A stretch of DNA of 64,000 nt from Aestuariivita boseongensis. Its GTDB lineage: Bacteria > Pseudomonadota > Alphaproteobacteria > Rhodobacterales > Rhodobacteraceae. How positions within the stretch are numbered: the first letter of the stretch is position 1; each line of letters opens with the position of its first letter. Below, in pieces: positions 1-11,673 of this stretch. Below the pieces are notes generated by a model. It was given only the letters and a program-made list of their open reading frames with translations, was not told where the DNA came from and made no database searches. The translations under genes were made by a program, and so were the position numbers. Location: the NCBI RefSeq assembly GCF_001262635.1, contig NZ_JXYH01000005.1, positions 62,070 through 126,069 on the forward strand, in the 5' to 3' direction.

Positions 1-2787
1 GGCCCCGACCCGGTGCAGGGCACCTATGGCACCTTCACGATCTCGGCCTCGGGGGAATGGACCTACACACTCACGGAAAGCCTTGAAGGTCTGAATGCGC
101 CCGAGGCCGAAGGTGGTGCTTCGGCGATCGAGACCTTCACGGTTCAGGTCTCTGACGGGAATGGCGGGGTCGACCAGCAGGTGATCACGATCAACCTGGT
201 CGGCGACAATGACCTGCCTGTCTTTGACACCGAACTCAGCACCGATACCGGTGAGGTGACGGAAGATTCCGATGACATCGCCGCGACCGGCACGATGATC
301 GCCACCGATGTCGACAGCGCCGATCCGGTCTGGAGCAACCTGACCGGTGGCGACACGATCCAGGGTACGTATGGCGCGCTGCAGATCCAGGCAAACGGCT
401 CGTGGACCTATGAGCTGGATCCCGAACTGTCCGACAGTCTGGGCGATAGCGATGTGGAGACCGACAGCTTTACCGTGAGAGCCAGCGATGGCGACGGCGG
501 AGAAATCCAGCGCACCATCCAGATCACCGTGAATGGATCGAATGATGCGCCGGTCATCACCTCCGGACCCGAGGCCGCGACGGGTTCGGTCACCGAAGAT
601 GATCAGGTGAACACAGCTTCAGGCCAGCTGACGGCCTTTGATGCCGAAAACAGTCCGCTCACCTGGGGCATGGTGGGCAGCATCGAAGGCACCTATGGCA
701 CGCTGACCATCGACGATGACGGCAACTGGCTATACACGCTTGACAACATTCAGGCCAACAGCCTCGGCGAGGGTGACAGTGACACCGATACCTTCACCGT
801 CTTCGCCTCGGATGGCAGCCTGCAATCGGGCAACCAGCAGATCACGATTACGGTGAACGGTGCCAATGACGCACCCGAACTGCCCGAAGACAACGTCTTT
901 GAAACCACACAGGCCACGGCGGTTACAGATACCATTCTGGCCACTGACCCCGATGGCGACACGCTGACCTATACCCTGGTCACCGGCGAAGGGTTCGACG
1001 CGGAAAACGGCACCGTGTCGCTGACCAGCGGCGGGTCTTTCACCTATACCCCCAATGAAGGCTTTGTGGGCTTCGACAGCTTCACCTACGAGGTCAGCGA
1101 CGGGCTGGGCGGCGTGACCCAGGGCGAGGTGATCATCGCGGTTGAAACGGGTGAGGGCGGCGACAACAGCGTTGATGTGATCGTCAATTTCGATCCGGCA
1201 ACGGATGCTCCGGCCGGTAGTGTCGTACTGGATGCCAATGAGGTCACGTCATCCGAGGTCAATCTAATCTTTGCGCTGGATGGGTCCGGCAGTATCTCCA
1301 ATGACGACTGGAATGCGATGATCACGTCGATCGATGGGGCGCTTGACACACTGCAGACCCGGTTTGAAGGTTCAGAATTAACGGTTACCGTTGGATTTAC
1401 CGTCTTTTCCAGCGATGCGACTGAGGTTGTGTCTTTTGACCTGTTCAACGCCACCGGCACTGCCGAAGATCCTCGCGACGGCTGGGCGGAGGAGCTGGAA
1501 GCTCTGCGCGACGAACAGCCCAGCAGCCTGACCAACTGGGGCGCCGCACTGGACAGCACCGATACCTATCTTGACGGAACGGATCCCAACGCGCAGAACT
1601 TCCTGTTCTTCATCACCGATGGTGTGCCGTCGGGCAATGACTCGGTCTGGCAGGTCGAGCGAGATGAGCTTCTGGCCAACCACAACATCGACATCGAAGC
1701 CTTTGGGCTTGGTCCTGCCTTTGATAGCACCAGCGGCAATCCCTCTGCCAATGCGGTCGAAAGCCTGAACGGGCTGGACAGCGACGGTGCCTATACCGCG
1801 CTCTCAGGCCCTGAGGATTTGGAGCAGGCGTTGATCACGACCCCAGCTTTCAACCCAACGCTTGTGTCTTTGTCGGTGTCCTTGTCCGTCGAAGGTGGAC
1901 CCTCGACCGTGGTTGCCACAGAAGACACCCGGGCCCTGGCCAAGGAGGGAATTGACTACGAATTGGCGCTGGCCGAGATCGAAGACCTCTCTGACGCTCT
2001 GGGAGTGGAAAACCGGTTTTCGGTTACAGCCACTTATGACCTGGATGGTGATGGCGTCGCGGATCTGACCGTTTTCGCTACAGAAGTCTTTGGTAAGTCT
2101 GAAACGGAGGTGACGATCCCCAATGCCACCGACAGCCCCGCGTCCGAGCTGACGGGCAGCGATCTTCTGTTCGGGAGCGATCTTGCCGATGATATCTCAA
2201 GTGGGTCGGGCAATGATCTGGTGATGGGCTATGACGGTGCGGACAGCCTGAATGCCGGCACCGGGATCGATACAGTGCTTGCAGGGGCAGGCGACGATCT
2301 GCTGACTATGGAAGATGCTGGAGTGACCCGTCTGCCCGAAGACGGCGGCGACGGGGATTTGATGGATGGTGGCACGGGCCAGGATACGCTGGTCTTCGAT
2401 TTCACCAACGACATTCTGACCAACCTGCTGGACGATGTGACGATCCGCGACATCGAAACACTGGATATGGATAACGGCTTGCAGAACTCCATGATGCTGA
2501 CGCTAAGCGATGTAGTCGATTTGTCGACGGACTCGAACGCGCTGCTTGATGGGCAGGGCGTGGGAGCCGTGTCGGACAGCGCATTGATCCTGGGTGACAC
2601 TCAGGATGTCCTGTTCCTGGAAGACGGCGCAGACGGAAATTGGGTGCTGGCTTCACAGGATGAAGATATCGGTGGAGGTCAGTTGGTGGATATATGGCAA
2701 TACCAAAGCAACACTGATCCGGTCGGCGTATTTTCGGCAACATTGGGTGTTGATGCAGAAATCGAAGTGAACCCGCCCGTCGCTTAA
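1..2787 (+). CDS. Large secreted adhesin, 5'-truncated at the window edge. Repeated VCBS/cadherin-like Ig domains are followed by a vWA domain and RTX (hemolysin-type Ca-binding) repeats, making it a likely T1SS substrate.
   Basis: Open frame from base 1. ~100-aa repeats (TFTVxxSDGxGG...ITINLVGxNDxPV) recur four times. vWA metal-site motif LIFALDGSGSIS....FITDG is present. C-terminal GSGNDLVMGYDGADSLNAGTGIDTVLAGAGDDLL glycine/aspartate nonapeptide repeats are followed by an acidic C-terminal tail. Confidence 0.8.
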   Translation, partial: GPDPVQGTYGTFTISASGEWTYTLTESLEGLNAPEAEGGASAIETFTVQVSDGNGGVDQQVITINLVGDNDLPVFDTELSTDTGEVTEDSDDIAATGTMIATDVDSADPVWSNLTGGDTIQGTYGALQIQANGSWTYELDPELSDSLGDSDVETDSFTVRASDGDGGEIQRTIQITVNGSNDAPVITSGPEAATGSVTEDDQVNTASGQLTAFDAENSPLTWGMVGSIEGTYGTLTIDDDGNWLYTLDNIQANSLGEGDSDTDTFTVFASDGSLQSGNQQITITVNGANDAPELPEDNVFETTQATAVTDTILATDPDGDTLTYTLVTGEGFDAENGTVSLTSGGSFTYTPNEGFVGFDSFTYEVSDGLGGVTQGEVIIAVETGEGGDNSVDVIVNFDPATDAPAGSVVLDANEVTSSEVNLIFALDGSGSISNDDWNAMITSIDGALDTLQTRFEGSELTVTVGFTVFSSDATEVVSFDLFNATGTAEDPRDGWAEELEALRDEQPSSLTNWGAALDSTDTYLDGTDPNAQNFLFFITDGVPSGNDSVWQVERDELLANHNIDIEAFGLGPAFDSTSGNPSANAVESLNGLDSDGAYTALSGPEDLEQALITTPAFNPTLVSLSVSLSVEGGPSTVVATEDTRALAKEGIDYELALAEIEDLSDALGVENRFSVTATYDLDGDGVADLTVFATEVFGKSETEVTIPNATDSPASELTGSDLLFGSDLADDISSGSGNDLVMGYDGADSLNAGTGIDTVLAGAGDDLLTMEDAGVTRLPEDGGDGDLMDGGTGQDTLVFDFTNDILTNLLDDVTIRDIETLDMDNGLQNSMMLTLSDVVDLSTDSNALLDGQGVGAVSDSALILGDTQDVLFLEDGADGNWVLASQDEDIGGGQLVDIWQYQSNTDPVGVFSATLGVDAEIEVNPPVA

Positions 2788-2802: not shown

Positions 2803-3195
2803 CTATCTTGCCGCAAAGACCAGCCATGCCCAGATCATGGCAACATAAGTCATCTGGTGTAGGAACTGGTCAAAGCCTGCGGCACGCCAGAAACCTGCGT
2901 CGGCGGGCCCATGGCCTTTGGTGGCGGTATAGGCTGCTTTGGCCCAGTCGATGTGGAAGTGCACCACCCATTCTAGCAAGATCAGCACCAGGATCACTCC
3001 TATCGGCGCGCCAACAATCAGAAGGCAGATCAGCGATCCGACCGCGTGCACCAACGCGTGCTGCGCACGACCCATATGAAAATAGGTCCCGCGCCCTTCC
3101 AGCATCCTAGAAGTCTGGAGGAAGTAATCCGAAAACATATGCTTGATTTGAAGCAGGGAAAGCAGGATCAGAATCTGTAACGCCAGCTCGGTCAC
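2803..3195 (-). CDS. Small polytopic inner-membrane protein of unknown function
   Basis: 130-aa ORF with 3-4 hydrophobic helices. GC3-rich codon usage typical of the genome. No recognisable catalytic motif. Confidence 0.45.
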   Translation of the reverse strand: MTELALQILILLSLLQIKHMFSDYFLQTSRMLEGRGTYFHMGRAQHALVHAVGSLICLLIVGAPIGVILVLILLEWVVHFHIDWAKAAYTATKGHGPADAGFWRAAGFDQFLHQMTYVAMIWAWLVFAAR

Positions 3196-3425
3196 GTGGT
3201 TAACATCCTTTACGACACGCCGGCCGATACGTTGAGTGTAATGCCGAATATTTGGGCAAAAGCAATTGATTGCAAGAGCCTAAGACGTTTACCTTGGGTC
3301 CCATGTGCTTGAAGCTGGAATAAGCAACACGCGGCAACCGCTTTGCGGCAGATTGGAACAAGGCCATAGAACGCACACTTTTCAAATTCATTTGGAAATA
3401 CTCCAAGCGCGACCAACTGGTTCTT

Positions 3426-6368
3426 TTGGCCGTGACAACCTGCTTGTTCCCGCTTCTGTATCTGACGCTGGAATTGCCCAAGCGGATCATCAACGACGCC
3501 ATAGGTGCGGGATCCTCCCCGGTGCAGTTCATGGGCTATTCCGTCGAACAGGTGGTCTTGCTCAGTATCCTCTGCGGGGCCTTTCTGCTGTCGGTTCTGG
3601 CCCACGGCCTTCTGAAGATGCGCATCAACACGATGAAGGGCATTCTGTCGGAACGCATGCTGCGGCGGTTCCGCTATACACTGATTGCGCGCGTCACGCG
3701 GTTCCCGCAGCCCTATTTCGAACGCACCAGCCAGGGCGAGCTTGTCTCGATGATCACGTCCGAGGCCGAACCGATGGGCGGTCTGATGGGCGACGCGATC
3801 AGCCAGCCGGTGCTGCAGGCGGGCCAGATGCTGACGATCCTCAGCTTCCTGTTCCTGCAATCCTTCTGGTTCGGGCTGGCCGCCATTGCGCTGATCCCGC
3901 TGCAGGCCTGGCTGATCCCGATGCTGCAGCGCCAGATCAACCAGCTGAACAAAAAGCGCATTGTGCAGGTCCGCGCCTTTGCCGCCGAAATCGGGGAAAC
4001 GGCCCAGGGCGCCTCGACCCTGCGGGCCAATGGCGGCTGGCGTTTCCGGCTGTCGATGATCACCGACCGGCTGGCGCGGCTGTTCACGATCCGGTTCGAG
4101 ATCTACCAGAAGAAATTCTTCATGAAGTTCCTCAACAACTTCATCAACCAGCTCACGCCCTTCTTCTTTTATCTGGTGGGCGGTCTTCTGGTGATCCAGG
4201 GAGAGATTACCGTGGGCGCGCTGGTCGCGGCGCTGGCGGCCTACAAGGATATCGCCAGCCCCTGGAAAGAGCTTCTGGCCTATTACAACCAGGTGCAGGA
4301 CATGTCCCTGCGCTGGGAGATCATCACCGAACGCTTTGCCCCCGAAGGCATGACGGACGAGGCGCTGTTCACCGGCCAGCCCGAGGGCGAACCCGATCTG
4401 AAAGGCCCGATCACGCTGAAACATGTCAATGTGCGCGATGCCGATGGCAACAGCGTGCTGGAAGACCTCAATGTGACCCTGAACGAGGGCGCGATGATCG
4501 GCGTCACGGCCCCCAGCGAAGAGGACCGCCGCGCCTTTTCAGAAGTGCTGGTGCGCGAGGTGCAGCCTGCGGGCGGCAGCGTGACCATTGCCGACCAGCC
4601 GCTGGCGGGGCTGCATCAGGCAGTTGTGGCGCGCCAGATCGGCCATGCCTCGGCCCGGCCCGTTCTGTTTCAGGGCACTTTCCTGGAAAACGTGCTGATG
4701 CCGCTGAAGTACCAGCCCCTGTCGAAAGAGGGGATGGAGGCCGCGATCCTCGATGCCGAACGTTCGGGAAACAGCGGCGATCCGCTTCTGGCAGATTGGC
4801 TGGACCCGTCGCTTGCCGGGCTTGAAGACGAAGCCGCGCTGCGTGGCTGGATGCTGAAACTGGTCGACGCACTTGGCAGCGCGCCCACCTTCTTCCGCAG
4901 GGGCCTTGATATGCGCGCCGACGCGGTTCAGACGCCCGAGTTGACCCAGGCCATCATCGACGCCCGCACCAGCCTGAAGGAAGAGCTGCGCGCCACCGGG
5001 CTTGACCGCGCGGTGCATTGGCTGAACCCCGTGGCCTATAACCCCGCGCTGCCCGTGGGCGACAACCTGCTTTATGCCTCCCCGCTCAAACCCATCACGC
5101 AAGAGGCGCTGGCGCAGGAAACCGAATTCCTTGCCTTCCTGCGCGAACAGAAGATCGACGCGGGCCTGATCGCGCTCAGCCGCGATGTGATCGACATGCT
5201 GCGCCAGATCTTCGGCATGGACGGCACCGACCACCCGCTGTTTCACAAGCTGGGGCTTGAGGAAGGCACCTATGCCAAGGCGGCCGAATTGGTCAGCGCC
5301 CATGACGACAGCGGCGAACTCAGCGACGATGATCTGGCGCTTCTGATGACCATTCCCTTTGGCATTTCCGCCGAACAGATCGGCCCGGCCTTCCCCGAAG
5401 CCATGCAGGAGCAGATCCTGGAACTGCGCGCCACCCATGGCCAGGACATGCGCGAAAAGCTGAAAAGCCTTTACGTGCCGCTTTCCAGCAGCGCCTGGGC
5501 TCCGGGGATGAGCGTTCTGGAAAACGCGCTTTACGGGAAAGTGTCGGATACCGCCGGCGCCCGCGCGGACGAGGTGCGCCGCAAAGCCGCCGAATATCTG
5601 GAACGCGCCGGTCTGCGCGATCTGGTGGTGGCGCTGGTCTTTGACTGCCCGGTTCCTCTGGGCGGTGCCAACATGCCCTCGATTCTGGCCGAACCGCTGG
5701 CGGTGATGCGCGCCGCGATCAAGCGACCCAATGTGCTGGTTCTGGACAACGTGCTGGCCAGCCGCGAACGCGACGAGCGGCAGGAAGCCTATGAGAAACT
5801 GCACGAGCTTCTGCCCGGCACCACCATGGTTGTTCTGTCCGACAGCTTTCCCGCCGGTGCCGTCTTTGAACAGCAGCTTGACCTGCAACAGGGCCGGCTT
5901 GTCGCCCATGGCGAAACCGTGGCCGCCGAACAGGATGGCGCGGCCAGCGCGGACCTCACGCGCAAGCTGCGCGCGCTGGAACAGACGCATCTCTTTTCCG
6001 GTCTGGGCCGCCGCCAGCTGCGCCTGCTGGCCTTCGGCGCGCGCTGGTATGACGCGCAGGCGGGCGAATATGTCTTCTACAAGGGCGACCCGCCGATTGA
6101 CGGGGCCTATATGGTCATCGAAGGCGAAGCGGGGCTTTATCTTCCCAAGGACGGCGAAGACGATCAGCTGATCACCACCGTGGGTCCCGGCACGCTGGTG
6201 GGTGAACTGGGACTGATCCGCAACGTGCCGCGCGCGCTGGACATGAAGGCCGAAACCGATTTGAGATGCCTGCGCATCGGGGCCGAGGAATTCCTCGCCG
6301 TTGTGGAAAATGACGCCCAGACGGCCTTCAAGCTGTTGCAGGTCGTGGCGGGCTATGTCTCGAACTGA
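3426..6368 (+). CDS. ABC-exporter-like protein with a transmembrane domain, degenerate nucleotide-binding domain and C-terminal cyclic-nucleotide-binding (cNMP) domain. The true start is probably upstream of the TTG at 3426.
   Basis: N-terminal type-I ABC exporter TMD (6 predicted TM helices). The NBD-like region lacks Walker A (GAMIGVTAPSEEDRRA instead of GxxGxGKST). Walker B is VLVLDN (catalytic Glu replaced by Asn), the signature is degenerate (PLGGANMPS), and there is a large insertion inside the NBD. C-terminal ~130 aa match the cNMP-binding fold (FSGLGRRQLRLLAFGARWYDAQAGEYVFYKGDPPIDGAYMVIEGEAGLY...GELGLI). Confidence 0.8.
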   Translation: MAVTTCLFPLLYLTLELPKRIINDAIGAGSSPVQFMGYSVEQVVLLSILCGAFLLSVLAHGLLKMRINTMKGILSERMLRRFRYTLIARVTRFPQPYFERTSQGELVSMITSEAEPMGGLMGDAISQPVLQAGQMLTILSFLFLQSFWFGLAAIALIPLQAWLIPMLQRQINQLNKKRIVQVRAFAAEIGETAQGASTLRANGGWRFRLSMITDRLARLFTIRFEIYQKKFFMKFLNNFINQLTPFFFYLVGGLLVIQGEITVGALVAALAAYKDIASPWKELLAYYNQVQDMSLRWEIITERFAPEGMTDEALFTGQPEGEPDLKGPITLKHVNVRDADGNSVLEDLNVTLNEGAMIGVTAPSEEDRRAFSEVLVREVQPAGGSVTIADQPLAGLHQAVVARQIGHASARPVLFQGTFLENVLMPLKYQPLSKEGMEAAILDAERSGNSGDPLLADWLDPSLAGLEDEAALRGWMLKLVDALGSAPTFFRRGLDMRADAVQTPELTQAIIDARTSLKEELRATGLDRAVHWLNPVAYNPALPVGDNLLYASPLKPITQEALAQETEFLAFLREQKIDAGLIALSRDVIDMLRQIFGMDGTDHPLFHKLGLEEGTYAKAAELVSAHDDSGELSDDDLALLMTIPFGISAEQIGPAFPEAMQEQILELRATHGQDMREKLKSLYVPLSSSAWAPGMSVLENALYGKVSDTAGARADEVRRKAAEYLERAGLRDLVVALVFDCPVPLGGANMPSILAEPLAVMRAAIKRPNVLVLDNVLASRERDERQEAYEKLHELLPGTTMVVLSDSFPAGAVFEQQLDLQQGRLVAHGETVAAEQDGAASADLTRKLRALEQTHLFSGLGRRQLRLLAFGARWYDAQAGEYVFYKGDPPIDGAYMVIEGEAGLYLPKDGEDDQLITTVGPGTLVGELGLIRNVPRALDMKAETDLRCLRIGAEEFLAVVENDAQTAFKLLQVVAGYVSN

Positions 6369-7250: not shown

Positions 7251-8642
7251 ATGTTGGGTCTCAGACGGGTTCTATTGGCAGCAGCGCTGGGCGTGTCGGC
7301 CTGCAGCGGTGTCACCACCATTCACAACCCTGCGGCAGATACCGTCTGGCCCCCTCAGGAAAAGTCCGCGCCTTATAGTCAGGGCACGAAAACCACCGCG
7401 CGCAAGAATATCGCGATCTTCTTTGATGGCACGGGCAATGATTTCAACGCGGCGACCAATGTGGGCCGTCTGTATCAGTTGACGATCAACTAGAACCGCG
7501 ACGACATCGCGGCCTTTTACTCCTCGGGCGTGGGGGTTGATCGCGAGGTGCCTGTCGGGCTCGCCACTGGCCTTGGCTTTCGCGAGGATGTGCAGAATGC
7601 CTATCGCTTTCTGTCCGAAAACTATGCGGGCAGCCATGACCAGATCCATCTTTACGGCTATTCGTGCGGGGTGTTTGCCGTCCGTGCTCTGGGGGGGGGC
7701 GTGCATACGGTGGGGCTTGTGGATCTTCCCGATGACTATGACGCCGATCGCCGCGATTAGATCATTCACGAGCTCTTCACGGCCTATAAATTCGCCCACA
7801 ACAGGGCCGTGCCGCAAGGCTGCCCGGTCAGATGGGGCCAGCCGCAGGAAGCCATCGACCGCCGTCGCTGCGCAACGGGACGCGTGCTGGCCAAACACGG
7901 GCTGAGCGTGTCACGTTACCATGACGAGGTGCGCTTTGCCATGGTCGGCCTGTGGGACACGGTCGAAACGCTGGGATGGACCAATGGCCGTGACGATATC
8001 GACGATGTGAACTGGCGCTATGCCGATCAGATCTGCAACATGGACCGGGTCGCCCATGCCGCGTCGCTGCATGACAATCGCGCGGGGCCCTATACGCCCA
8101 TCCTGATGACCCGCCGCCGTATTGTAGACGATTGCGACCATCCCGATAGGGTGCTTTTCAAACGTGTGAACGAAGTCTGGTTTGCAGGCGATCACGGCCA
8201 GATCGGCGGGACCGAACCTTTGGGATATCTCTCGGGCGTGTCGCTGAACTGGATGCTGGATCAGGTGCGGCAGGTTCGCGTGAACGGACCGATCTTTCCC
8301 AAACATGCTGCCGTCCATGAAGACCGCCTCGATGTGGTCAAGGATGCCGAGCGCCAACGCCTGGGCTTCCGAGTGCTGTTTGACCGGCAGATGCGCGGTA
8401 TCCGCTGTTACTTCAAACCGGGCAATGATCGGCTATGGCAAAACGGATCCGCCGTCAGCAGGATCAAACTCCATGTGTCGGTGAAAGAACGTCTCGCGGC
8501 CGATGTCAGGCAGGTCCGGCGCGACCGGACCGGTGAGCCCCTGAAAGCGCTTTCCATCGAAGGGCAGGAGGCCCAGGTCGCCCGGATCAAAGCGTCAGAT
8601 GCCGCCTGTAACCCCGTTAAGCTGGTCTACGTCGGCGGCTGA
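7251..8642 (+). pseudogene. DUF2235 / Tle1-like alpha/beta-hydrolase (phospholipase-type) lipoprotein gene interrupted by two in-frame TAG codons
   Basis: Signal peptide with lipobox LGVSAC. IAIFFDGTGN, the GxSxG nucleophile (YGYSCG) and GLWDTV motifs of the DUF2235/Tle1 catalytic domain all lie in one reading frame. That frame is broken only by TAG at 7491-7493 and TAG at 7758-7760. Similarity continues across both stops. A G9 homopolymer lies at 7691-7699. Confidence 0.7.
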
Positions 8643-9033: not shown

Positions 9034-10287
9034 TCAATCCGTGTCACCTGTTCCGTCAGGCTCGGACGCAGGGGCCCCACCTTCGAAGGCGTTGCCATTG
9101 ACGTAATCGCAGGGCGCTTCCTGCATTTCCAGATGCAGGCCCGTGCCGGTATAGGGATGGGCGCGGGCCAGATCTTCGTCCACCTCGATGCCCAGACCGG
9201 GGGCGGTGGGGGGCGTTATGAACCCGTCCTCCACCCGGATTGCGCCCTTGATCAGACGATCATGGAAATCGGTCTCAATCGTTTCGCACATCAGGATATT
9301 GGGGATCGACGCGGCCAGGTGAATATTCGCCGCCCATTCTACCGGCCCTGCATAGAGATGCGGCGCCATCTGCGCGTTATAGACCTCGGCGATGGCGGCC
9401 ACTTTCTTCATCTCCCAGATACCGCCCGCGCGCCCCAGCGCTGGCTGTAGGATCGTCGCCGCGCCCGCACGCAGGATCTGGGCGAATTCGGCTTTGGTCG
9501 TAATCCGCTCTCCGGTGGCCACCGGGATGCGCACGGCGCGCGCGACCTTGGCCATCTCCTCCACCGCGTCGGGGGGAATGGGTTCTTCGAACCACAGCGG
9601 CGAATAGGGCTCCAGCGCCTGGCCCAGACGGATCGCGCCTGCGGTGGTGAACTGGCCATGGGTGCCGAACAGCAAATCGGCCTTGTCGCCCACAGCCTCC
9701 CGGATCGCTTTGCAGAAGGCTACCGATTGGCTGATATCCGACATCGCCGGCATATGCCCACCGCGCAGCGTGTAGGGGCCTGCGGGGTCGAATTTCACCG
9801 CCGTGAAACCGCGCGCCACGCAATCCGCCGCAGCCTCGGCCGCCATCTCGGGCGAGGTCCAGAAGTCTTTCATCCGGTGATGCGCCAAAGGGTAAAGATA
9901 GGTATAGGCGCGGATCCGGTCATTCATCTTCCCGCCGATCAGCGCATGAACGGGGCGGTCCCGATCCTTGCCCAGAATGTCCCAGCAGGCGATCTCAAGC
10001 CCGGAAAACGCGCCCATCACCGTCAGGTCGGGCCGTTGCGTAAACCCGCTGGAATAGGCGCGGCGGAACATCAGTTCGATGTTTTCGGGGTTCTCGCCCG
10101 CCATATGCCGTTCGAAAACATCGCGGATCACATGGGTCATCGCCTCGGGCCCGATGGACGAGGCATAGCATTCCCCCCAGCCCGTAACCCCGGTATCGGT
10201 GGAGAGCTTCACCAGGATCCAATACCGCCCACCCCAGCCAGGAGCAGGGGGCGCGGTCACGATCAAGTCCAGATCGGTCAGTTTCAT
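9034..10287 (-). CDS. Mandelate racemase / muconate-lactonizing enzyme family (enolase superfamily) dehydratase or cycloisomerase
   Basis: N-terminal capping domain (ILVKLSTDTGVTGWGE). Barrel-domain metal-ligand context (WFEEP, FGTHGQ). GGGAGG RBS before the ATG on the minus strand. Confidence 0.85.
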   Translation of the reverse strand: MKLTDLDLIVTAPPAPGWGGRYWILVKLSTDTGVTGWGECYASSIGPEAMTHVIRDVFERHMAGENPENIELMFRRAYSSGFTQRPDLTVMGAFSGLEIACWDILGKDRDRPVHALIGGKMNDRIRAYTYLYPLAHHRMKDFWTSPEMAAEAAADCVARGFTAVKFDPAGPYTLRGGHMPAMSDISQSVAFCKAIREAVGDKADLLFGTHGQFTTAGAIRLGQALEPYSPLWFEEPIPPDAVEEMAKVARAVRIPVATGERITTKAEFAQILRAGAATILQPALGRAGGIWEMKKVAAIAEVYNAQMAPHLYAGPVEWAANIHLAASIPNILMCETIETDFHDRLIKGAIRVEDGFITPPTAPGLGIEVDEDLARAHPYTGTGLHLEMQEAPCDYVNGNAFEGGAPASEPDGTGDTD

Positions 10288-10464
10288 CAGTCCCTCCCAT
10301 TTTTGCTGACCCTGCAGCCCGTTGTCCTACGGCGCAAGCGCGAAAACAGCATCGAGCGCAGGTCGCCAGATGCAAATCAGCGATCATGTCCCGACCCAGT
10401 CCGGAATTGCGGCAGACCGGGCCGGTCTGCTAGCCTGCTGCGCACCGTCATCGGGGAGGCCCAA

Positions 10465-11673
10465 ATGACCACTGCTTTCGAAAAACCAGACCTCGGCAGG
10501 TTGATCGCCAGCCAGGTGCCCGGCCGATCTCTGGATCAGGCGTTCTACCTGTCGCCCGGGGTTTTCGCCGCCGACACGGCGCGGATTTTCCATCAGGACT
10601 GGCATCTGGCGGGCCATATCTCGGAATTGCCAGAGCCTGGCAATTACCTTTTGTTCGACATGCTGGGCGAAAGCGTCATTGTCGTGCGCGGGCAGGATGG
10701 CGCGCTGCATGCCCATGCCAATGTCTGCCGTCACCGGGGGTCGCGCCTGTGCCTTGAGCCGCGCGGATCGGTCAAACGGTTTACCTGCCCCTATCACGCC
10801 TGGTCCTATGAGGTGGACGGGCAGCTGTTCAATGCGCGCCAGCTGGACGCGGGCGAAGACCGGGACGCGCTGTCGCTGAAACCTGTCGCGGTGGAGCTGT
10901 TCGAGGGGTTGATCTATGTCTCCCTCTCCGACCAGCCCGCCAGCTTTGCCGCCCTGAGGGAGGAACTCACACCCCATGTCCGGCCCTTTGGCATGGCGCG
11001 CACAAAGATCGCGCATCGGCGAACATATCCGGTCAAAGCCAACTGGAAGCTGCTGGTCGAAAATTACAACGAATGTTACCACTGCTCCGGCGCGCATCCG
11101 GAATTTTCGCGCTCGCACTCCATCCATATGACCTCCGACCGGGTGGCCCCGCTCAATGACGATTTGCAGGCGCGTGCGGCGGCAATCGGGGCCTCTGCGG
11201 TCACGCTGGACCGCTCGACAACGCATGCGCCGGACGGATCGCCGGATTATTCCTATAACCGTTATGCGCTGTTTGACGGCTTTCAGACCGGCAGCGAGGA
11301 TGGTCAGCCGGTGGCCCCTCTGCTGGGCGATCTGACTGGTTATGATGGCGGCGCATCAGATGTCTATGTGGGTATTCTGAACCCGATGCTGGTCTATTGC
11401 GACCATGCGGTGCTCTATCGGTTTGTCCCTGTCGATCTGCACCATTCCGTGCAGGAAATCATCTGGCTGGTGCACGAAGACGCGGAAGAGGGGCGCGATT
11501 ACGATCTGGGACGTCTCACCTGGCTCTGGGACGTGACGACCGAGGCCGACAAACGCATCATCGAGGCCAATCAGGAGGGCATCGGCTCGCGCTATTACGA
11601 GCCGGGACCGCTGGTGGAGATGGAGCAATATACCCGCCGGTTCCTGGAAACCTATCTGGCGCGGCTGGCCTGA
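10465..11673 (+). CDS. Rieske [2Fe-2S] non-heme-iron aromatic ring-hydroxylating oxygenase, alpha subunit
   Basis: Rieske motif CRHRG...CPYHAW. Catalytic-domain EYHCSGAHPE. ATG start assigned from the ORF frame (MTTAFEK). Confidence 0.85.
   Translation: MTTAFEKPDLGRLIASQVPGRSLDQAFYLSPGVFAADTARIFHQDWHLAGHISELPEPGNYLLFDMLGESVIVVRGQDGALHAHANVCRHRGSRLCLEPRGSVKRFTCPYHAWSYEVDGQLFNARQLDAGEDRDALSLKPVAVELFEGLIYVSLSDQPASFAALREELTPHVRPFGMARTKIAHRRTYPVKANWKLLVENYNECYHCSGAHPEFSRSHSIHMTSDRVAPLNDDLQARAAAIGASAVTLDRSTTHAPDGSPDYSYNRYALFDGFQTGSEDGQPVAPLLGDLTGYDGGASDVYVGILNPMLVYCDHAVLYRFVPVDLHHSVQEIIWLVHEDAEEGRDYDLGRLTWLWDVTTEADKRIIEANQEGIGSRYYEPGPLVEMEQYTRRFLETYLARLA

What the first reader, a model, noticed from the sequence alone, without database searches (positions are those of the whole stretch)
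3324..6368. ABC-exporter-like pseudo-transporter with a dead ATPase domain fused to a cyclic-nucleotide-binding domain
The 980-aa protein has a canonical type-I ABC exporter membrane domain. Its nucleotide-binding domain lacks Walker A entirely. Walker B has D-N instead of D-E, the signature motif is degenerate, and there is a ~300-aa insertion. The C-terminus is a clear cNMP-binding beta-roll. This looks like an ATP-hydrolysis-incompetent ABC scaffold that senses cAMP/cGMP rather than a transporter. It sits immediately downstream of a giant RTX/vWA adhesin that needs a type I secretion system, but no canonical HlyB/HlyD/TolC genes are in the window. A regulatory or retention role for the adhesin, analogous to but distinct from c-di-GMP LapD-type control, is an attractive and untested possibility.
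Basis: partly seen in the sequence, partly recalled or inferred. Interest (0 to 1): 0.68.

Follow-up and report, generated by a model that had tools for sequence, protein, structure and literature searches.

The report
Dead-ATPase ABC exporter with cNMP sensor
This gene encodes a well-conserved membrane protein built like an ABC export pump, but every ATP-site motif tested has been replaced and a cyclic-nucleotide sensor is fused to its end, so it probably acts as a cAMP/cGMP-controlled membrane switch rather than an ATP-driven pump, and it is not specifically tied to the neighbouring adhesin.

Summary
The ORF at 3426..6368 (probable true start ATA 3366) encodes three parts: a type-I ABC-exporter membrane domain, an NBD with every ATP-site motif replaced (Walker A GxxGxGK[ST] -> APSEEDRR), and an intact cNMP-binding domain that keeps the phosphate-binding-cassette Glu and Arg. 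The "insertion" of about 255 aa is a confidently folded helical module. It arose at least partly by internal duplication of the Q-loop/helical-subdomain segment and has no solved structural match.

The protein is not decaying. Against an 86%-identical ortholog, dN/dS is 0.04 for the membrane domain, 0.02 for the cNMP domain and 0.13-0.19 for the NBD parts. Relatives occur in at least 542 species genomes.

The adhesin link is not supported as proposed:
- Only the Aestuariivita clade has the adhesin next door.
- In the closest relative, a canonical T1SS ABC and membrane-fusion gene lie just beyond the window edge.
- The conserved partner is a divergent DUF3307 membrane protein (84/85 loci).

Cyclic-nucleotide genes do recur beside family members: class III cyclases, an MBL-fold phosphodiesterase-like gene, and a split-off cNMP-binding gene. 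Distant relatives add a GGDEF domain.

The best reading is an ATP-independent, cNMP-driven conformational switch on an ABC scaffold. The family is uncharacterised.

The parts
3366..6368 (+). Probable true coding sequence of the ABC-exporter-like cNMP-binding protein. It would be 1000 aa starting from a non-canonical ATA. The mechanical ORF is 3426..6368, and the NCBI annotation starts at ATT 3390.
   Evidence: Family conservation begins at IERTLF (3366). That codon is ATA in 43 of 54 loci, ATC in 10 and ATG in 1. ATA makes up only 1.9% of Ile codons in 25 window genes.
3378..4334 (+). Transmembrane domain with six long helices, type-I (type IV fold) ABC exporter. It is one of the two most conserved parts of the protein (dN/dS 0.04; cNMP domain 0.024).
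   Evidence: Pfam ABC_membrane, E 4.7e-20. AF2 helices H19-H337. Foldseek hits to ABC exporters. dN/dS 0.04 against L002.
4386..4709 (+). N-terminal half of the degenerate NBD: beta-strands, the pseudo-P-loop and the first Q-loop-like segment.
   Evidence: Aligned to BmrA 93-443, MsbA and HlyB models. AF2 pLDDT is above 90.
4509..4532 (+). Pseudo-Walker A, APSEEDRR, in place of GxxGxGK[ST]. It is acidic and conserved across the roseobacter clade.
4710..5471 (+). Helical insertion of about 255 aa within the NBD helical subdomain. Its second half is an internal duplicate of the segment that leads to the signature motif.
5472..5918 (+). C-terminal half of the degenerate NBD. It contains the third Q-loop-like segment, the signature-like LGGAN (5658-5672), Walker B VLVLDN (5733-5750), the D-loop remnant LASRE, and an H-loop position with no His.
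5940..6365 (+). C-terminal cyclic-nucleotide-binding domain (beta-roll plus helices). The phosphate-binding cassette GELGLIRNVPRA lies at 6201-6236.
   Evidence: Pfam cNMP_binding, E 8.3e-17. phmmer hit to PKA RI-alpha, E 4e-12. dN/dS 0.024.
2803..3195 (-). DUF3307 small membrane protein (130 aa), divergently transcribed. It is the conserved genomic partner of the ABC-cNMP gene.
   Evidence: Pfam PF11750, E 2e-10. Present immediately upstream and divergent in 84 of 85 loci.
3196..3365 (.). Divergent intergenic region. It contains a clade-conserved inverted repeat, GCAAT-TG-ATTGC, at about 3262-3273, and a purine-rich stretch upstream of the ATA.
1..2787 (+). C-terminal 924 aa of a large VCBS/cadherin/VWA/RTX adhesin. 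It is a neighbour but not a conserved partner.

Best explanation
The gene encodes a member of an uncharacterised, widely conserved family derived from ABC exporters. In the roseobacter branch the NBD can no longer bind or hydrolyse ATP. It survives as a structured pseudo-NBD with an enlarged, partly duplicated helical subdomain, followed by a functional-looking cNMP-binding domain.

The most likely working model has four parts:
1. The protein forms a homodimer.
2. Binding of cAMP or cGMP to the two C-terminal CNB domains takes over the role of ATP as the ligand that rearranges the paired pseudo-NBDs.
3. That movement passes through the coupling helices to the very highly conserved membrane domain.
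4. Because a ligand that is not hydrolysed cannot power uphill transport, the output must be one of two things. Either it gates a passive pathway (channel, facilitator or lipid flip), or it relays a conformational signal in the membrane, probably together with the conserved DUF3307 partner.

The cNMP would come from membrane-sensor class III cyclases. In this genome's clade one such cyclase is encoded with the adhesin island.

Shown here: domain anatomy, loss of motifs, purifying selection, genomic associations. Inferred: homodimer formation, cNMP binding, and the nature of the output.
For: - All seven ATP-site elements are non-canonical. The replacements (APSEEDRR, LGGxN) are themselves conserved across genera.
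- Purifying selection acts on every domain, strongest on the TMD (0.04) and CNB (0.024).
- The full-length AF2 model is confident (pLDDT 86.4) and shows an ABC-exporter fold.
- The CNB keeps the cassette Glu and Arg and matches PKA RI-alpha.
- No second ABC half-transporter gene was seen beside it in the loci whose called genes were listed, apart from the adhesin's T1SS ABC about 9 kb upstream in L002/L003 and an ABC importer operon in L088/L089. The other 80 loci were not screened for ABC genes.
- cNMP genes recur beside family members:
  - a dCache-HAMP cyclase in 15 loci and a CHASE2 cyclase in the Aestuariivita island;
  - an MBL-fold Apyc1-like gene in Thalassospira;
  - a separate CNB gene 41 nt downstream of a CNB-less relative.
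- Relatives carry a C-terminal GGDEF domain after the CNB, which is a signalling output.
Against: - No experiment exists, and no paper on the family was found.
- The dimer state and the CNB-to-pseudo-NBD contacts could not be modelled, because only monomer prediction was available and no coordinates were returned.
- Distant relatives keep Walker A GK[ST] and lie next to a conserved glycosyltransferase cluster. The ancestral job was therefore probably real export, and a transport role may persist here with another energy source.
- Most species (about 80% of loci) have no cyclase nearby.
- The function of DUF3307 is unknown.
Confidence: 0.45

Rival explanations
1. It is still a transporter. The ABC-type membrane domain moves a specific substrate, perhaps a glycolipid or glycoconjugate as the relatives' context suggests. 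Transport would be driven by the proton-motive force or run down a gradient, as in the NBD-less ABC-fold protein SbmA/BacA. The CNB domain would act only as an on/off regulator.
For: - The TMD is one of the two most conserved parts of the protein (invariant columns).
- Three distant relatives sit beside an orthologous cluster of two GT28-like genes, two GT4 genes and a histidine phosphatase.
- The closest curated models are the MsbA and HepA-family exporters.
Against: - No glycosyltransferase cluster lies near the gene in the 85 roseobacter loci or in the window.
- No conserved proton-coupling feature was identified.
- The retained and elaborated pseudo-NBD is unnecessary for a purely PMF-driven carrier.
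Confidence: 0.25
2. The protein regulates, retains or helps secrete the neighbouring giant RTX/VWA adhesin, analogous to LapD control, possibly standing in for a missing type I secretion system.
For: - The gene is adjacent to the adhesin in this genome and its closest relatives.
- The adhesin island in the relative carries a CHASE2 cyclase that could feed the CNB domain.
- An operon pairing a FecR-domain protein with a CHASE2 sensor has been described in the Burkholderia BiofilmReg operon (PMC5192318).
- A second, unrelated module of a giant surface protein plus a cyclase occupies the same position in 14-15 other loci.
Against: - The adhesin is absent from 80 of 85 loci, while the ABC-cNMP/DUF3307 pair is kept.
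- A canonical T1SS ABC and fusion protein lie upstream of the adhesin in the relative.
- The protein has no C39/CLD domain and scores far below the HlyB, PrtD and LssB model cut-offs.
- It has no HAMP-GGDEF-EAL architecture like LapD.
Confidence: 0.12
3. It is the degenerate half of a heterodimeric ABC exporter. Its partner, a canonical half-transporter, would be encoded elsewhere, and the pair would keep one working ATP site, as in TM287/288, TmrAB or BmrCD.
For: ABC exporters with one degenerate site are common (review PMC7756269, listed). Some family members keep Walker A GK[ST].
Against: - Known heterodimer genes are adjacent, and no adjacent half-transporter partner gene was seen in the loci inspected.
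- Both this protein's Walker A and its signature are lost. As a result neither composite site could be canonical: the partner's Walker A would face LGGAN, and the partner's signature would face APSEEDRR.
Confidence: 0.06
4. It is a decaying pseudogene or annotation artefact, given the missing start codon and the dead motifs.
For: No canonical start codon lies upstream of TM1, and an in-frame TAA lies at 3321. A neighbouring Tle1-like gene is disrupted by two stops.
Against: - The frame is intact for 1000 codons.
- dN/dS is 0.02-0.19 in all domains.
- Relatives occur in at least 542 species genomes.
- The AF2 model is confident.
- The start-codon oddity is itself conserved as ATA or ATC, with one ATG.
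Confidence: 0.02
5. It is a Pycsar-like anti-phage effector: a cyclase makes a cyclic nucleotide on infection, and a CNB-plus-membrane protein then damages the membrane.
For: The logic of cyclase plus CNB-membrane protein is the same. The neighbouring cyclases hit PycC models through the shared class III fold. In Thalassospira the upstream neighbour is an MBL-fold protein that hits Pfam's Anti-Pycsar_Apyc1 family.
Against: - There is no significant PADLOC effector hit (best E 0.0019, to a cyclase model).
- The gene is syntenic and near-universal across roseobacter genera rather than patchy.
- The cyclases carry extracytoplasmic sensor domains (CHASE2, dCache-HAMP).
Confidence: 0.03

Closest known systems
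Homodimeric type-I (type IV fold) ABC exporters: BmrA, MsbA, Sav1866, PCAT1
   Same: The six-helix membrane domain and overall fold match. BmrA gives phmmer E 5e-20, and Foldseek gives E about 1e-14 with TM-scores of 0.5-0.6 normalised to the target. The order TMD then NBD on one chain is the same.
   Different: All ATP-site motifs are lost. A helical module of about 255 aa sits in the NBD. A CNB domain is fused at the C-terminus. No curated family cut-off is reached (107 bits against 602 for MsbA).
ABC exporters with one degenerate ATP site (TM287/288, TmrAB, BmrCD) and the ABC-derived channel/regulators CFTR and SUR
   Same: These are precedents for catalytically dead ATP sites used for regulation. 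They also show ABC exporter folds repurposed as a ligand-gated channel (CFTR, which is under cAMP control through PKA) or as a regulatory subunit (SUR). This point rests on established knowledge and review PMC7756269.
   Different: Those proteins always keep one consensus ATP site. Here no canonical site could be formed even with a partner. Control by cyclic nucleotide would be direct, through a fused CNB domain, rather than through phosphorylation.
SbmA/BacA (ABC-exporter-like membrane domain without an NBD, proton-driven)
   Same: It shows that this kind of membrane fold can work without ATP (established knowledge).
   Different: SbmA lacks any NBD remnant and any CNB domain. No sequence relationship was tested here.
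HetC and NHLM-type peptidase ABC exporters with N-terminal cNMP-binding domains
   Same: An ABC exporter and a cNMP_binding domain sit on one chain (PMC10986499).
   Different: In those proteins the CNB is N-terminal, next to a C39 peptidase, and the NBD is intact. Here the CNB is C-terminal, after a dead NBD. The NHLM models score far below their cut-offs.
Cyclic-nucleotide-gated channels with a C-terminal CNB (MlotiK1, SthK, CNG/HCN)
   Same: A CNB domain C-terminal to a membrane domain, with the cassette Glu and Arg kept, is the arrangement expected if it works like a cNMP-gated device.
   Different: The membrane domain is unrelated: an ABC exporter fold rather than a tetrameric P-loop channel.
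LapD/LapG control of RTX adhesin retention
   Same: Only the genomic theme is shared: a nucleotide second messenger near a giant T1SS adhesin.
   Different: There is no HAMP-GGDEF-EAL receptor and no LapG-type protease in the locus. The adhesin is absent from most loci.

Membership tests
ABC transporter ATPase (functional NBD, PF00005) | Walker A GxxGxGK[ST] | tested here: not met
   APSEEDRR aligns to BmrA GPSGGGKT. It is conserved across the roseobacter clade. Pfam ABC_tran gives no hit.
ABC transporter ATPase (functional NBD, PF00005) | Walker B hhhhD followed by the catalytic Glu | tested here: not met
   The window has VLVLD-N. The residue after Asp is variable (N, K, Q, R, G, E) in orthologs.
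ABC transporter ATPase (functional NBD, PF00005) | Signature LSGGQ, Q-loop Gln, H-loop His and A-loop aromatic residue | tested here: not met
   The signature is LGGAN. The Q-loop position is Ala/Ser. No His is present in the H-loop segment, and there is no aromatic residue at the A-loop.
Type-I ABC exporter membrane domain (PF00664) | Six-helix ABC_membrane domain above the Pfam gathering score, with an exporter fold | tested here: met
   72.8 bits against a cut-off of 28. AF2 model plus Foldseek hits to TM287/288, TmrAB, PCAT1 and Pgp.
cNMP-binding domain (PF00027) | Domain above the gathering score, with the phosphate-binding-cassette Glu and Arg | tested here: met
   61.4 bits against a cut-off of 27.5. 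GELGLIRNVPRA is conserved. PKA RI-alpha matches at E 4e-12.
cNMP-binding domain (PF00027) | Actual binding of cAMP or cGMP | not testable with these tools
   This needs ITC, fluorescence or DRaCALA on the purified domain.
Type I secretion ABC (HlyB/PrtD/LssB) | Score at or above the curated cut-off, an N-terminal C39/CLD domain where applicable, and adjacent membrane-fusion and outer-membrane genes | tested here: not met
   Scores of 70, 47 and 71 bits against cut-offs of 726, 510 and 693. The protein starts directly at TM1. There is no fusion-protein homolog in the window, and none was seen in the loci inspected except the adhesin's own upstream system in L002.
LapD-type c-di-GMP receptor | Periplasmic domain followed by HAMP and degenerate GGDEF-EAL | tested here: not met
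   Pfam finds only ABC_membrane and cNMP_binding.
Pycsar effector (CNB plus TM) | Match to a PADLOC effector model, and the patchy distribution typical of defence islands | tested here: not met
   The best PADLOC hit is E 0.0019, to a PycC model. The gene is syntenic across genera.
Heterodimeric ABC exporter with one degenerate site | An adjacent partner gene, and one consensus composite ATP site | tested here: not met
   No adjacent half-transporter partner gene in the inspected loci. Both Walker A and the signature are lost.

The most novel reading that the evidence does not exclude
A cyclic nucleotide has replaced ATP as the ligand that closes the paired nucleotide-binding-domain remnants of an ABC exporter. 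This would create a cyclic-nucleotide-gated channel, flippase or transmembrane relay with an ABC fold. Within one family, relatives would span the whole path: from ATP-binding exporters linked to glycosyltransferases, through forms regulated by cNMP and forms that synthesise c-di-GMP, to the fully ATP-independent roseobacter form.
Probability: 0.3. Interest if true: 0.85.

Novelty: new variant of a known kind. Interest (0 to 1): 0.6.

Why it matters
ABC exporters are defined by ATP-driven NBD dimerisation. The proteins known to have degenerate sites still keep one working site. This family has lost every ATP-site motif, yet it is under strong purifying selection, is widespread in an ecologically dominant marine group (the roseobacters), and carries a fused second-messenger sensor. 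It would therefore be a natural experiment in what an ABC scaffold can do without ATP. It would also identify a new membrane target of bacterial cAMP/cGMP signalling beyond Crp-type regulators. The gradient of relatives (Walker A intact, K to R, fully replaced; CNB separate, fused, or fused with GGDEF) gives a ready-made comparative series for structural and biochemical work. Tractable hosts carry the gene, namely Ruegeria pomeroyi and Phaeobacter.

Tried and rejected
- Adhesin co-occurrence. I tested it by tblastn over 85 loci and rejected it as a general feature.
- Missing T1SS. I rejected this because the relative's contig shows the ABC and fusion-protein genes upstream of the adhesin. The window itself has no fusion-protein, T1SS-ABC or cyclase homolog. 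Its other genes are housekeeping or metabolic.
- Curated family assignment. No NCBIfam model reaches its cut-off for the window protein or for three distant relatives.
- Defence-system reading. PADLOC gave nothing significant for the protein or for DUF3307.
- Literature. Six searches found no study of this family or of DUF3307 function.
- Link between CNB presence and loss of the Walker A lysine. Among representatives, 84% of CNB-bearing members and 65% of CNB-less members lack the Lys. However, the CNB-bearing Rhodospirillales relatives mostly keep GK, so I draw no clean rule.
- Conserved operator. The exact GCAATTGATTGC repeat is limited to Aestuariivita and one Tateyamaria locus. Ruegeria has a different palindrome, TGAACnnGTTCA. 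I did not pursue this further.
- Exact look-up of the NCBI protein P0001 found no contig, so this genome's own sequence upstream of the window could not be read.


Full report
**1. What is in the sequence**

The + strand is open from 3324 to the stop at 6366-6368. The mechanical ORF is 3426..6368 (980 aa, TTG start).

Pfam finds ABC_membrane (E 4.7e-20) and cNMP_binding (E 8.3e-17) but no ABC_tran hit. NCBIfam full-length exporter models (MsbA, HlyB, CydC/D, NHLM) align only from the membrane domain to about aa 444 and fall far below their cut-offs. For example, MsbA scores 107 bits against a cut-off of 602. Stand-alone NBD models (PhnT) align again at aa 692-836. phmmer against solved structures shows the same split. 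Query 110-465 (1014-aa numbering from 3324) matches BmrA 93-443, and query 773-863 matches BmrA 468-558.

**2. The NBD is dead at every ATP-site position**

In the BmrA alignment, the P-loop GPSGGGKTT corresponds to APSEEDRRA (aa 396-404, nt 4509-4535). The state of each motif is as follows:

| Motif | Canonical form | Window protein |
|---|---|---|
| Walker A | GxxGxGK[ST] | APSEEDRR |
| A-loop | aromatic residue | none |
| Q-loop | Gln | Ala/Ser |
| Signature | LSGGQ | LGGAN (779-783) |
| Walker B | hhhhD-E | VLVLD-N (804-809) |
| D-loop | SALD | LASRE |
| H-loop | His | none |

The replacements are themselves conserved. A(P/S)SEEDRRA and LGGxN(L/V)P recur in orthologs that share only 62-68% overall identity. 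Three acidic residues in the P-loop argue against any phosphate binding. That last point is my inference.

**3. The "insertion"**

The region between the first Q-loop-like segment and the segment that leads to the signature (aa 463-716, about 255 aa) is mostly helical. It is modelled with high confidence: pLDDT is above 90 in the full-length model and 91.7 when predicted alone.

A profile-profile comparison shows that its second half (aa 561-716) is homologous to the following segment (aa 714-800), with probability 97.7% and E 1.6e-12. The match to the first copy (aa 436-563) is weaker (probability 54%, E 1.3e-4). All three copies share a motif of the form x-x-N-x-L-(F/Y)-(G/A). The insertion is therefore at least partly an internal duplication of the Q-loop/helical-subdomain entry.

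**4. Fold**

The full-length AF2 model has pLDDT 86.4 and pTM 0.77. It shows six long TM helices, an NBD core, the helical module and a C-terminal beta-roll. Foldseek against the PDB returns only type-I ABC exporters: TM287/288, TmrAB, PCAT1, ABCB8, BmrA and P-glycoprotein.

**5. The CNB domain looks functional**

The phosphate-binding cassette GELGLIRNVPRA keeps the ribose-binding Glu and the phosphate-binding Arg. It is nearly invariant in the clade. PKA RI-alpha matches at E 4e-12.

**6. The gene is not decaying**

Against the 86%-identical ortholog (L002), dN/dS by domain is as follows:

| Domain | dN/dS |
|---|---|
| Membrane domain | 0.040 |
| CNB | 0.024 |
| NBD, N-terminal half | 0.19 |
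| Insert | 0.13 |
| NBD, C-terminal half | 0.16 |

More distant pairs are near saturation in dS and are not used. In typical ABC exporters the NBD is the most conserved part and the membrane domain the least (established knowledge). Here that order is reversed, with the membrane domain far more constrained than the NBD. This points to a specific conserved role for the membrane domain.

**7. Family**

The 100% match is annotated only as "ABC transporter transmembrane domain-containing protein" in Aestuariivita boseongensis. The best 120 hits are about 1000-aa proteins with the same two Pfam domains and no PF00005. They come from Ruegeria, Phaeobacter, Falsiruegeria, Thalassococcus, Tropicibacter and other genera.

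An exhaustive HMMER search of representatives clustered at 50% identity gave 525 clusters at E of 1e-30 or lower. These fall into forms of about 1000-1060 aa with a CNB and forms of about 840-900 aa without one. All have the split NBD. Among 122 long representatives:
- the Walker A Lys is kept in 36 and replaced by Arg in 61;
- a full GK[ST] is present in only 11;
- a Glu at the catalytic position is present in 23.

A second search with a profile of distant members found relatives in Thalassospira and other Rhodospirillales. In these, Pfam does detect ABC_tran, Walker A is G..GSGK(D/G/T/S/N), the signature-like region reads GG.RLS..QRQK, and Walker B is hhhh(N/D)-E. About half of the listed hits carry an extra C-terminal GGDEF domain after the CNB. 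The window protein therefore sits at the extreme end of a gradient of NBD degeneration, within a family that repeatedly fuses second-messenger modules.

**8. Genomic context**

*The conserved partner.* A DUF3307 gene of about 130 aa lies immediately upstream and divergent in 84 of 85 loci. In the window it is at 2803..3195 on the minus strand, between the adhesin and the ABC gene. Relatives at 47-53% identity lack this pairing.

*The adhesin.* It is present only in the Aestuariivita boseongensis clade (L002-L004, L006, L008). It is absent in Aestuariivita sp. FE80 and everywhere else. In the 86% relative, the gene order upstream is:
1. T1SS ABC (ABC_membrane + ABC_tran)
2. AprE/HlyD-type fusion protein
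3. CHASE2 class III cyclase (minus strand)
4. FecR-cadherin-VWA-RTX adhesin, 1771 aa
5. DUF3307 (minus strand)
6. ABC-cNMP

The adhesin therefore has its own secretion genes, at a position just left of this window. The window itself has no fusion-protein, T1SS-ABC or cyclase homolog. Its remaining genes are metabolic or housekeeping.

*A second module at the same position.* In 14-15 loci from other genera, the upstream position is taken by an orthologous pair: a 1624-aa secreted PKD-repeat protein and a dCache-HAMP class III cyclase. The genera include Seohaeicola, Tropicibacter, Marinibacterium, Antarcticimicrobium, Pseudodonghicola, Lutimaribacter and Tateyamaria. In Ruegeria the position holds an AsnC regulator and an oxidoreductase instead.

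*Other cNMP links in the wider family:*
- In Thalassospira an Ion_trans channel gene and an MBL-fold protein that hits Pfam's Anti-Pycsar_Apyc1 family lie directly upstream.
- A CNB-less relative with near-canonical motifs (P0169) is followed 41 nt later by a separate 167-aa CNB gene. That gene is homologous to the fused domains.
- That relative, a GGDEF-bearing one and a third member all flank an orthologous cluster of two GT28-like genes and two GT4 genes at 38-56% identity, with a histidine phosphatase in two of the three.

**9. How it most likely works**

Shown: the protein has an exporter-type membrane domain, a folded but ATP-incompetent NBD remnant and a canonical-looking CNB. All three are under selection, and cNMP-metabolising genes recur nearby.

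Inferred:
1. The protein is a homodimer. No adjacent half-transporter partner gene was seen in the loci inspected. With both Walker A and the signature lost, no canonical composite site could form even with a partner.
2. cNMP binding to the CNB pair substitutes for ATP in rearranging the pseudo-NBD pair. That movement is passed through the coupling helices to the membrane domain.
3. A ligand that is not hydrolysed cannot drive uphill transport. The output is therefore gating of a passive pathway or a conformational relay in the membrane, plausibly involving DUF3307.

In this genome's clade a reasonable upstream chain runs from the adhesin, through its FecR domain and the CHASE2 cyclase, to cNMP. 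An operon pairing a FecR-domain protein with a CHASE2 sensor has been described in Burkholderia (PMC5192318). This chain is untested, and it is not the general context of the family.

The main rival is that the membrane domain still transports a specific substrate with another energy source and the CNB merely regulates it. The glycosyltransferase synteny of distant relatives supports that rival.

**10. Comparison with what is known**

By fold the protein is an ABC type-I exporter, but it fails every sequence criterion for a functional ABC ATPase. It also fails the criteria for T1SS ABCs, LapD-type receptors, Pycsar effectors and heterodimeric ABC exporters with one degenerate site.

Functional analogies rest on established knowledge:
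- CFTR is an ABC fold turned into a gated channel under cAMP control.
- SUR is an ABC protein that acts as a regulatory subunit.
- SbmA/BacA has an ABC-like membrane domain that works without an NBD.
- CNG/MlotiK1 channels are gated by a C-terminal CNB.

HetC-type exporters carry an N-terminal CNB but have an intact NBD (PMC10986499). I found no paper on this family or on DUF3307 function.

**11. Verdict**

This is an uncharacterised, widespread and strongly conserved variant of the ABC exporter theme. It is worth experimental follow-up.

Caveats:
- All functional statements are inferences.
- The dimer state and domain contacts were not modelled.
- The synteny counts are not phylogenetically independent.
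- This genome's own sequence upstream of the window could not be read.

Noticed in passing
window 3303-3428: The gene probably starts at a conserved non-canonical codon. Family conservation begins at ATA 3366 (IERTLF). That codon is ATA in 43 of 54 loci, ATC in 10 and ATG in 1. Many loci have an in-frame stop 6-25 codons upstream with no ATG/GTG/TTG in between. ATA makes up only 1.9% of Ile codons in 25 window genes. A purine-rich GGAG/GGGG stretch lies about 8-13 nt upstream. In the window a 6-codon mini-ORF (ATG 3303 ... TAA 3321) ends 42 nt before the ATA. Annotation pipelines pick different downstream starts: NCBI uses ATT 3390, and others use codons inside TM1.
   Followed up: partly
window 7251-8642 (+): A gene for a T6SS Tle1-like (DUF2235-type) hydrolase is interrupted by two in-frame stop codons (after ...LTIN and ...DRRD). 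Its 467-aa ortholog in L002 is intact and aligns over its full length at 63% identity. It is a likely pseudogene or a sequencing error.
   Followed up: partly
window 3262-3273; Ruegeria loci about 150 nt upstream of the ATA: The divergent DUF3307/ABC intergenic region carries clade-specific inverted repeats. Aestuariivita and one Tateyamaria locus have GCAAT-TG-ATTGC. Ruegeria has TGAAC-nn-GTTCA(CA), which loosely resembles a Crp/Fnr half-site arrangement. These are possible operators for a shared regulator.
   Followed up: partly
P0297-P0409; L088 8001-11621: Rhodospirillales relatives have the architecture ABC_membrane, split ABC_tran, cNMP_binding and GGDEF (about 1180 aa). This is an ABC-exporter-like protein with a diguanylate-cyclase output domain. 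I found no description of it in the literature searched.
   Followed up: partly
L092 6001-9328; L088 2459-7901; L093 33-6906: Three distant family members lie next to an orthologous cluster of two GT28-like genes and two GT4 glycosyltransferases (38-56% identity), with a histidine phosphatase in L088 and L093. In L092 the CNB is a separate 167-aa gene 41 nt downstream of the ABC gene, which is a fission/fusion pair.
   Followed up: partly
L009 2666-9367 and 13-14 other loci: A conserved pair sits immediately upstream of DUF3307 in several genera: a 1624-aa secreted protein with about 15 PKD repeats and a dCache-HAMP class III nucleotide cyclase. It is a second kind of module combining a giant surface protein with a sensor cyclase, at the same position as the adhesin/CHASE2-cyclase island of Aestuariivita.
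   Followed up: partly
L086/L087 6149-7879: In Thalassospira two genes lie directly upstream of the ABC-cNMP gene on the same strand. One is an Ion_trans (voltage-gated-like) channel gene. The other is an MBL-fold protein that hits Pfam's Anti-Pycsar_Apyc1 family.
   Followed up: no
window 9658-11673 (+) versus 9034-10287 (-): The 671-aa Rieske/ring-hydroxylase ORF is over-extended at its 5' end. It overlaps the MR_MLE gene on the other strand, and the ortholog in L002 is 401 aa. This is an ORF-calling artefact, not a fusion.
   Followed up: no
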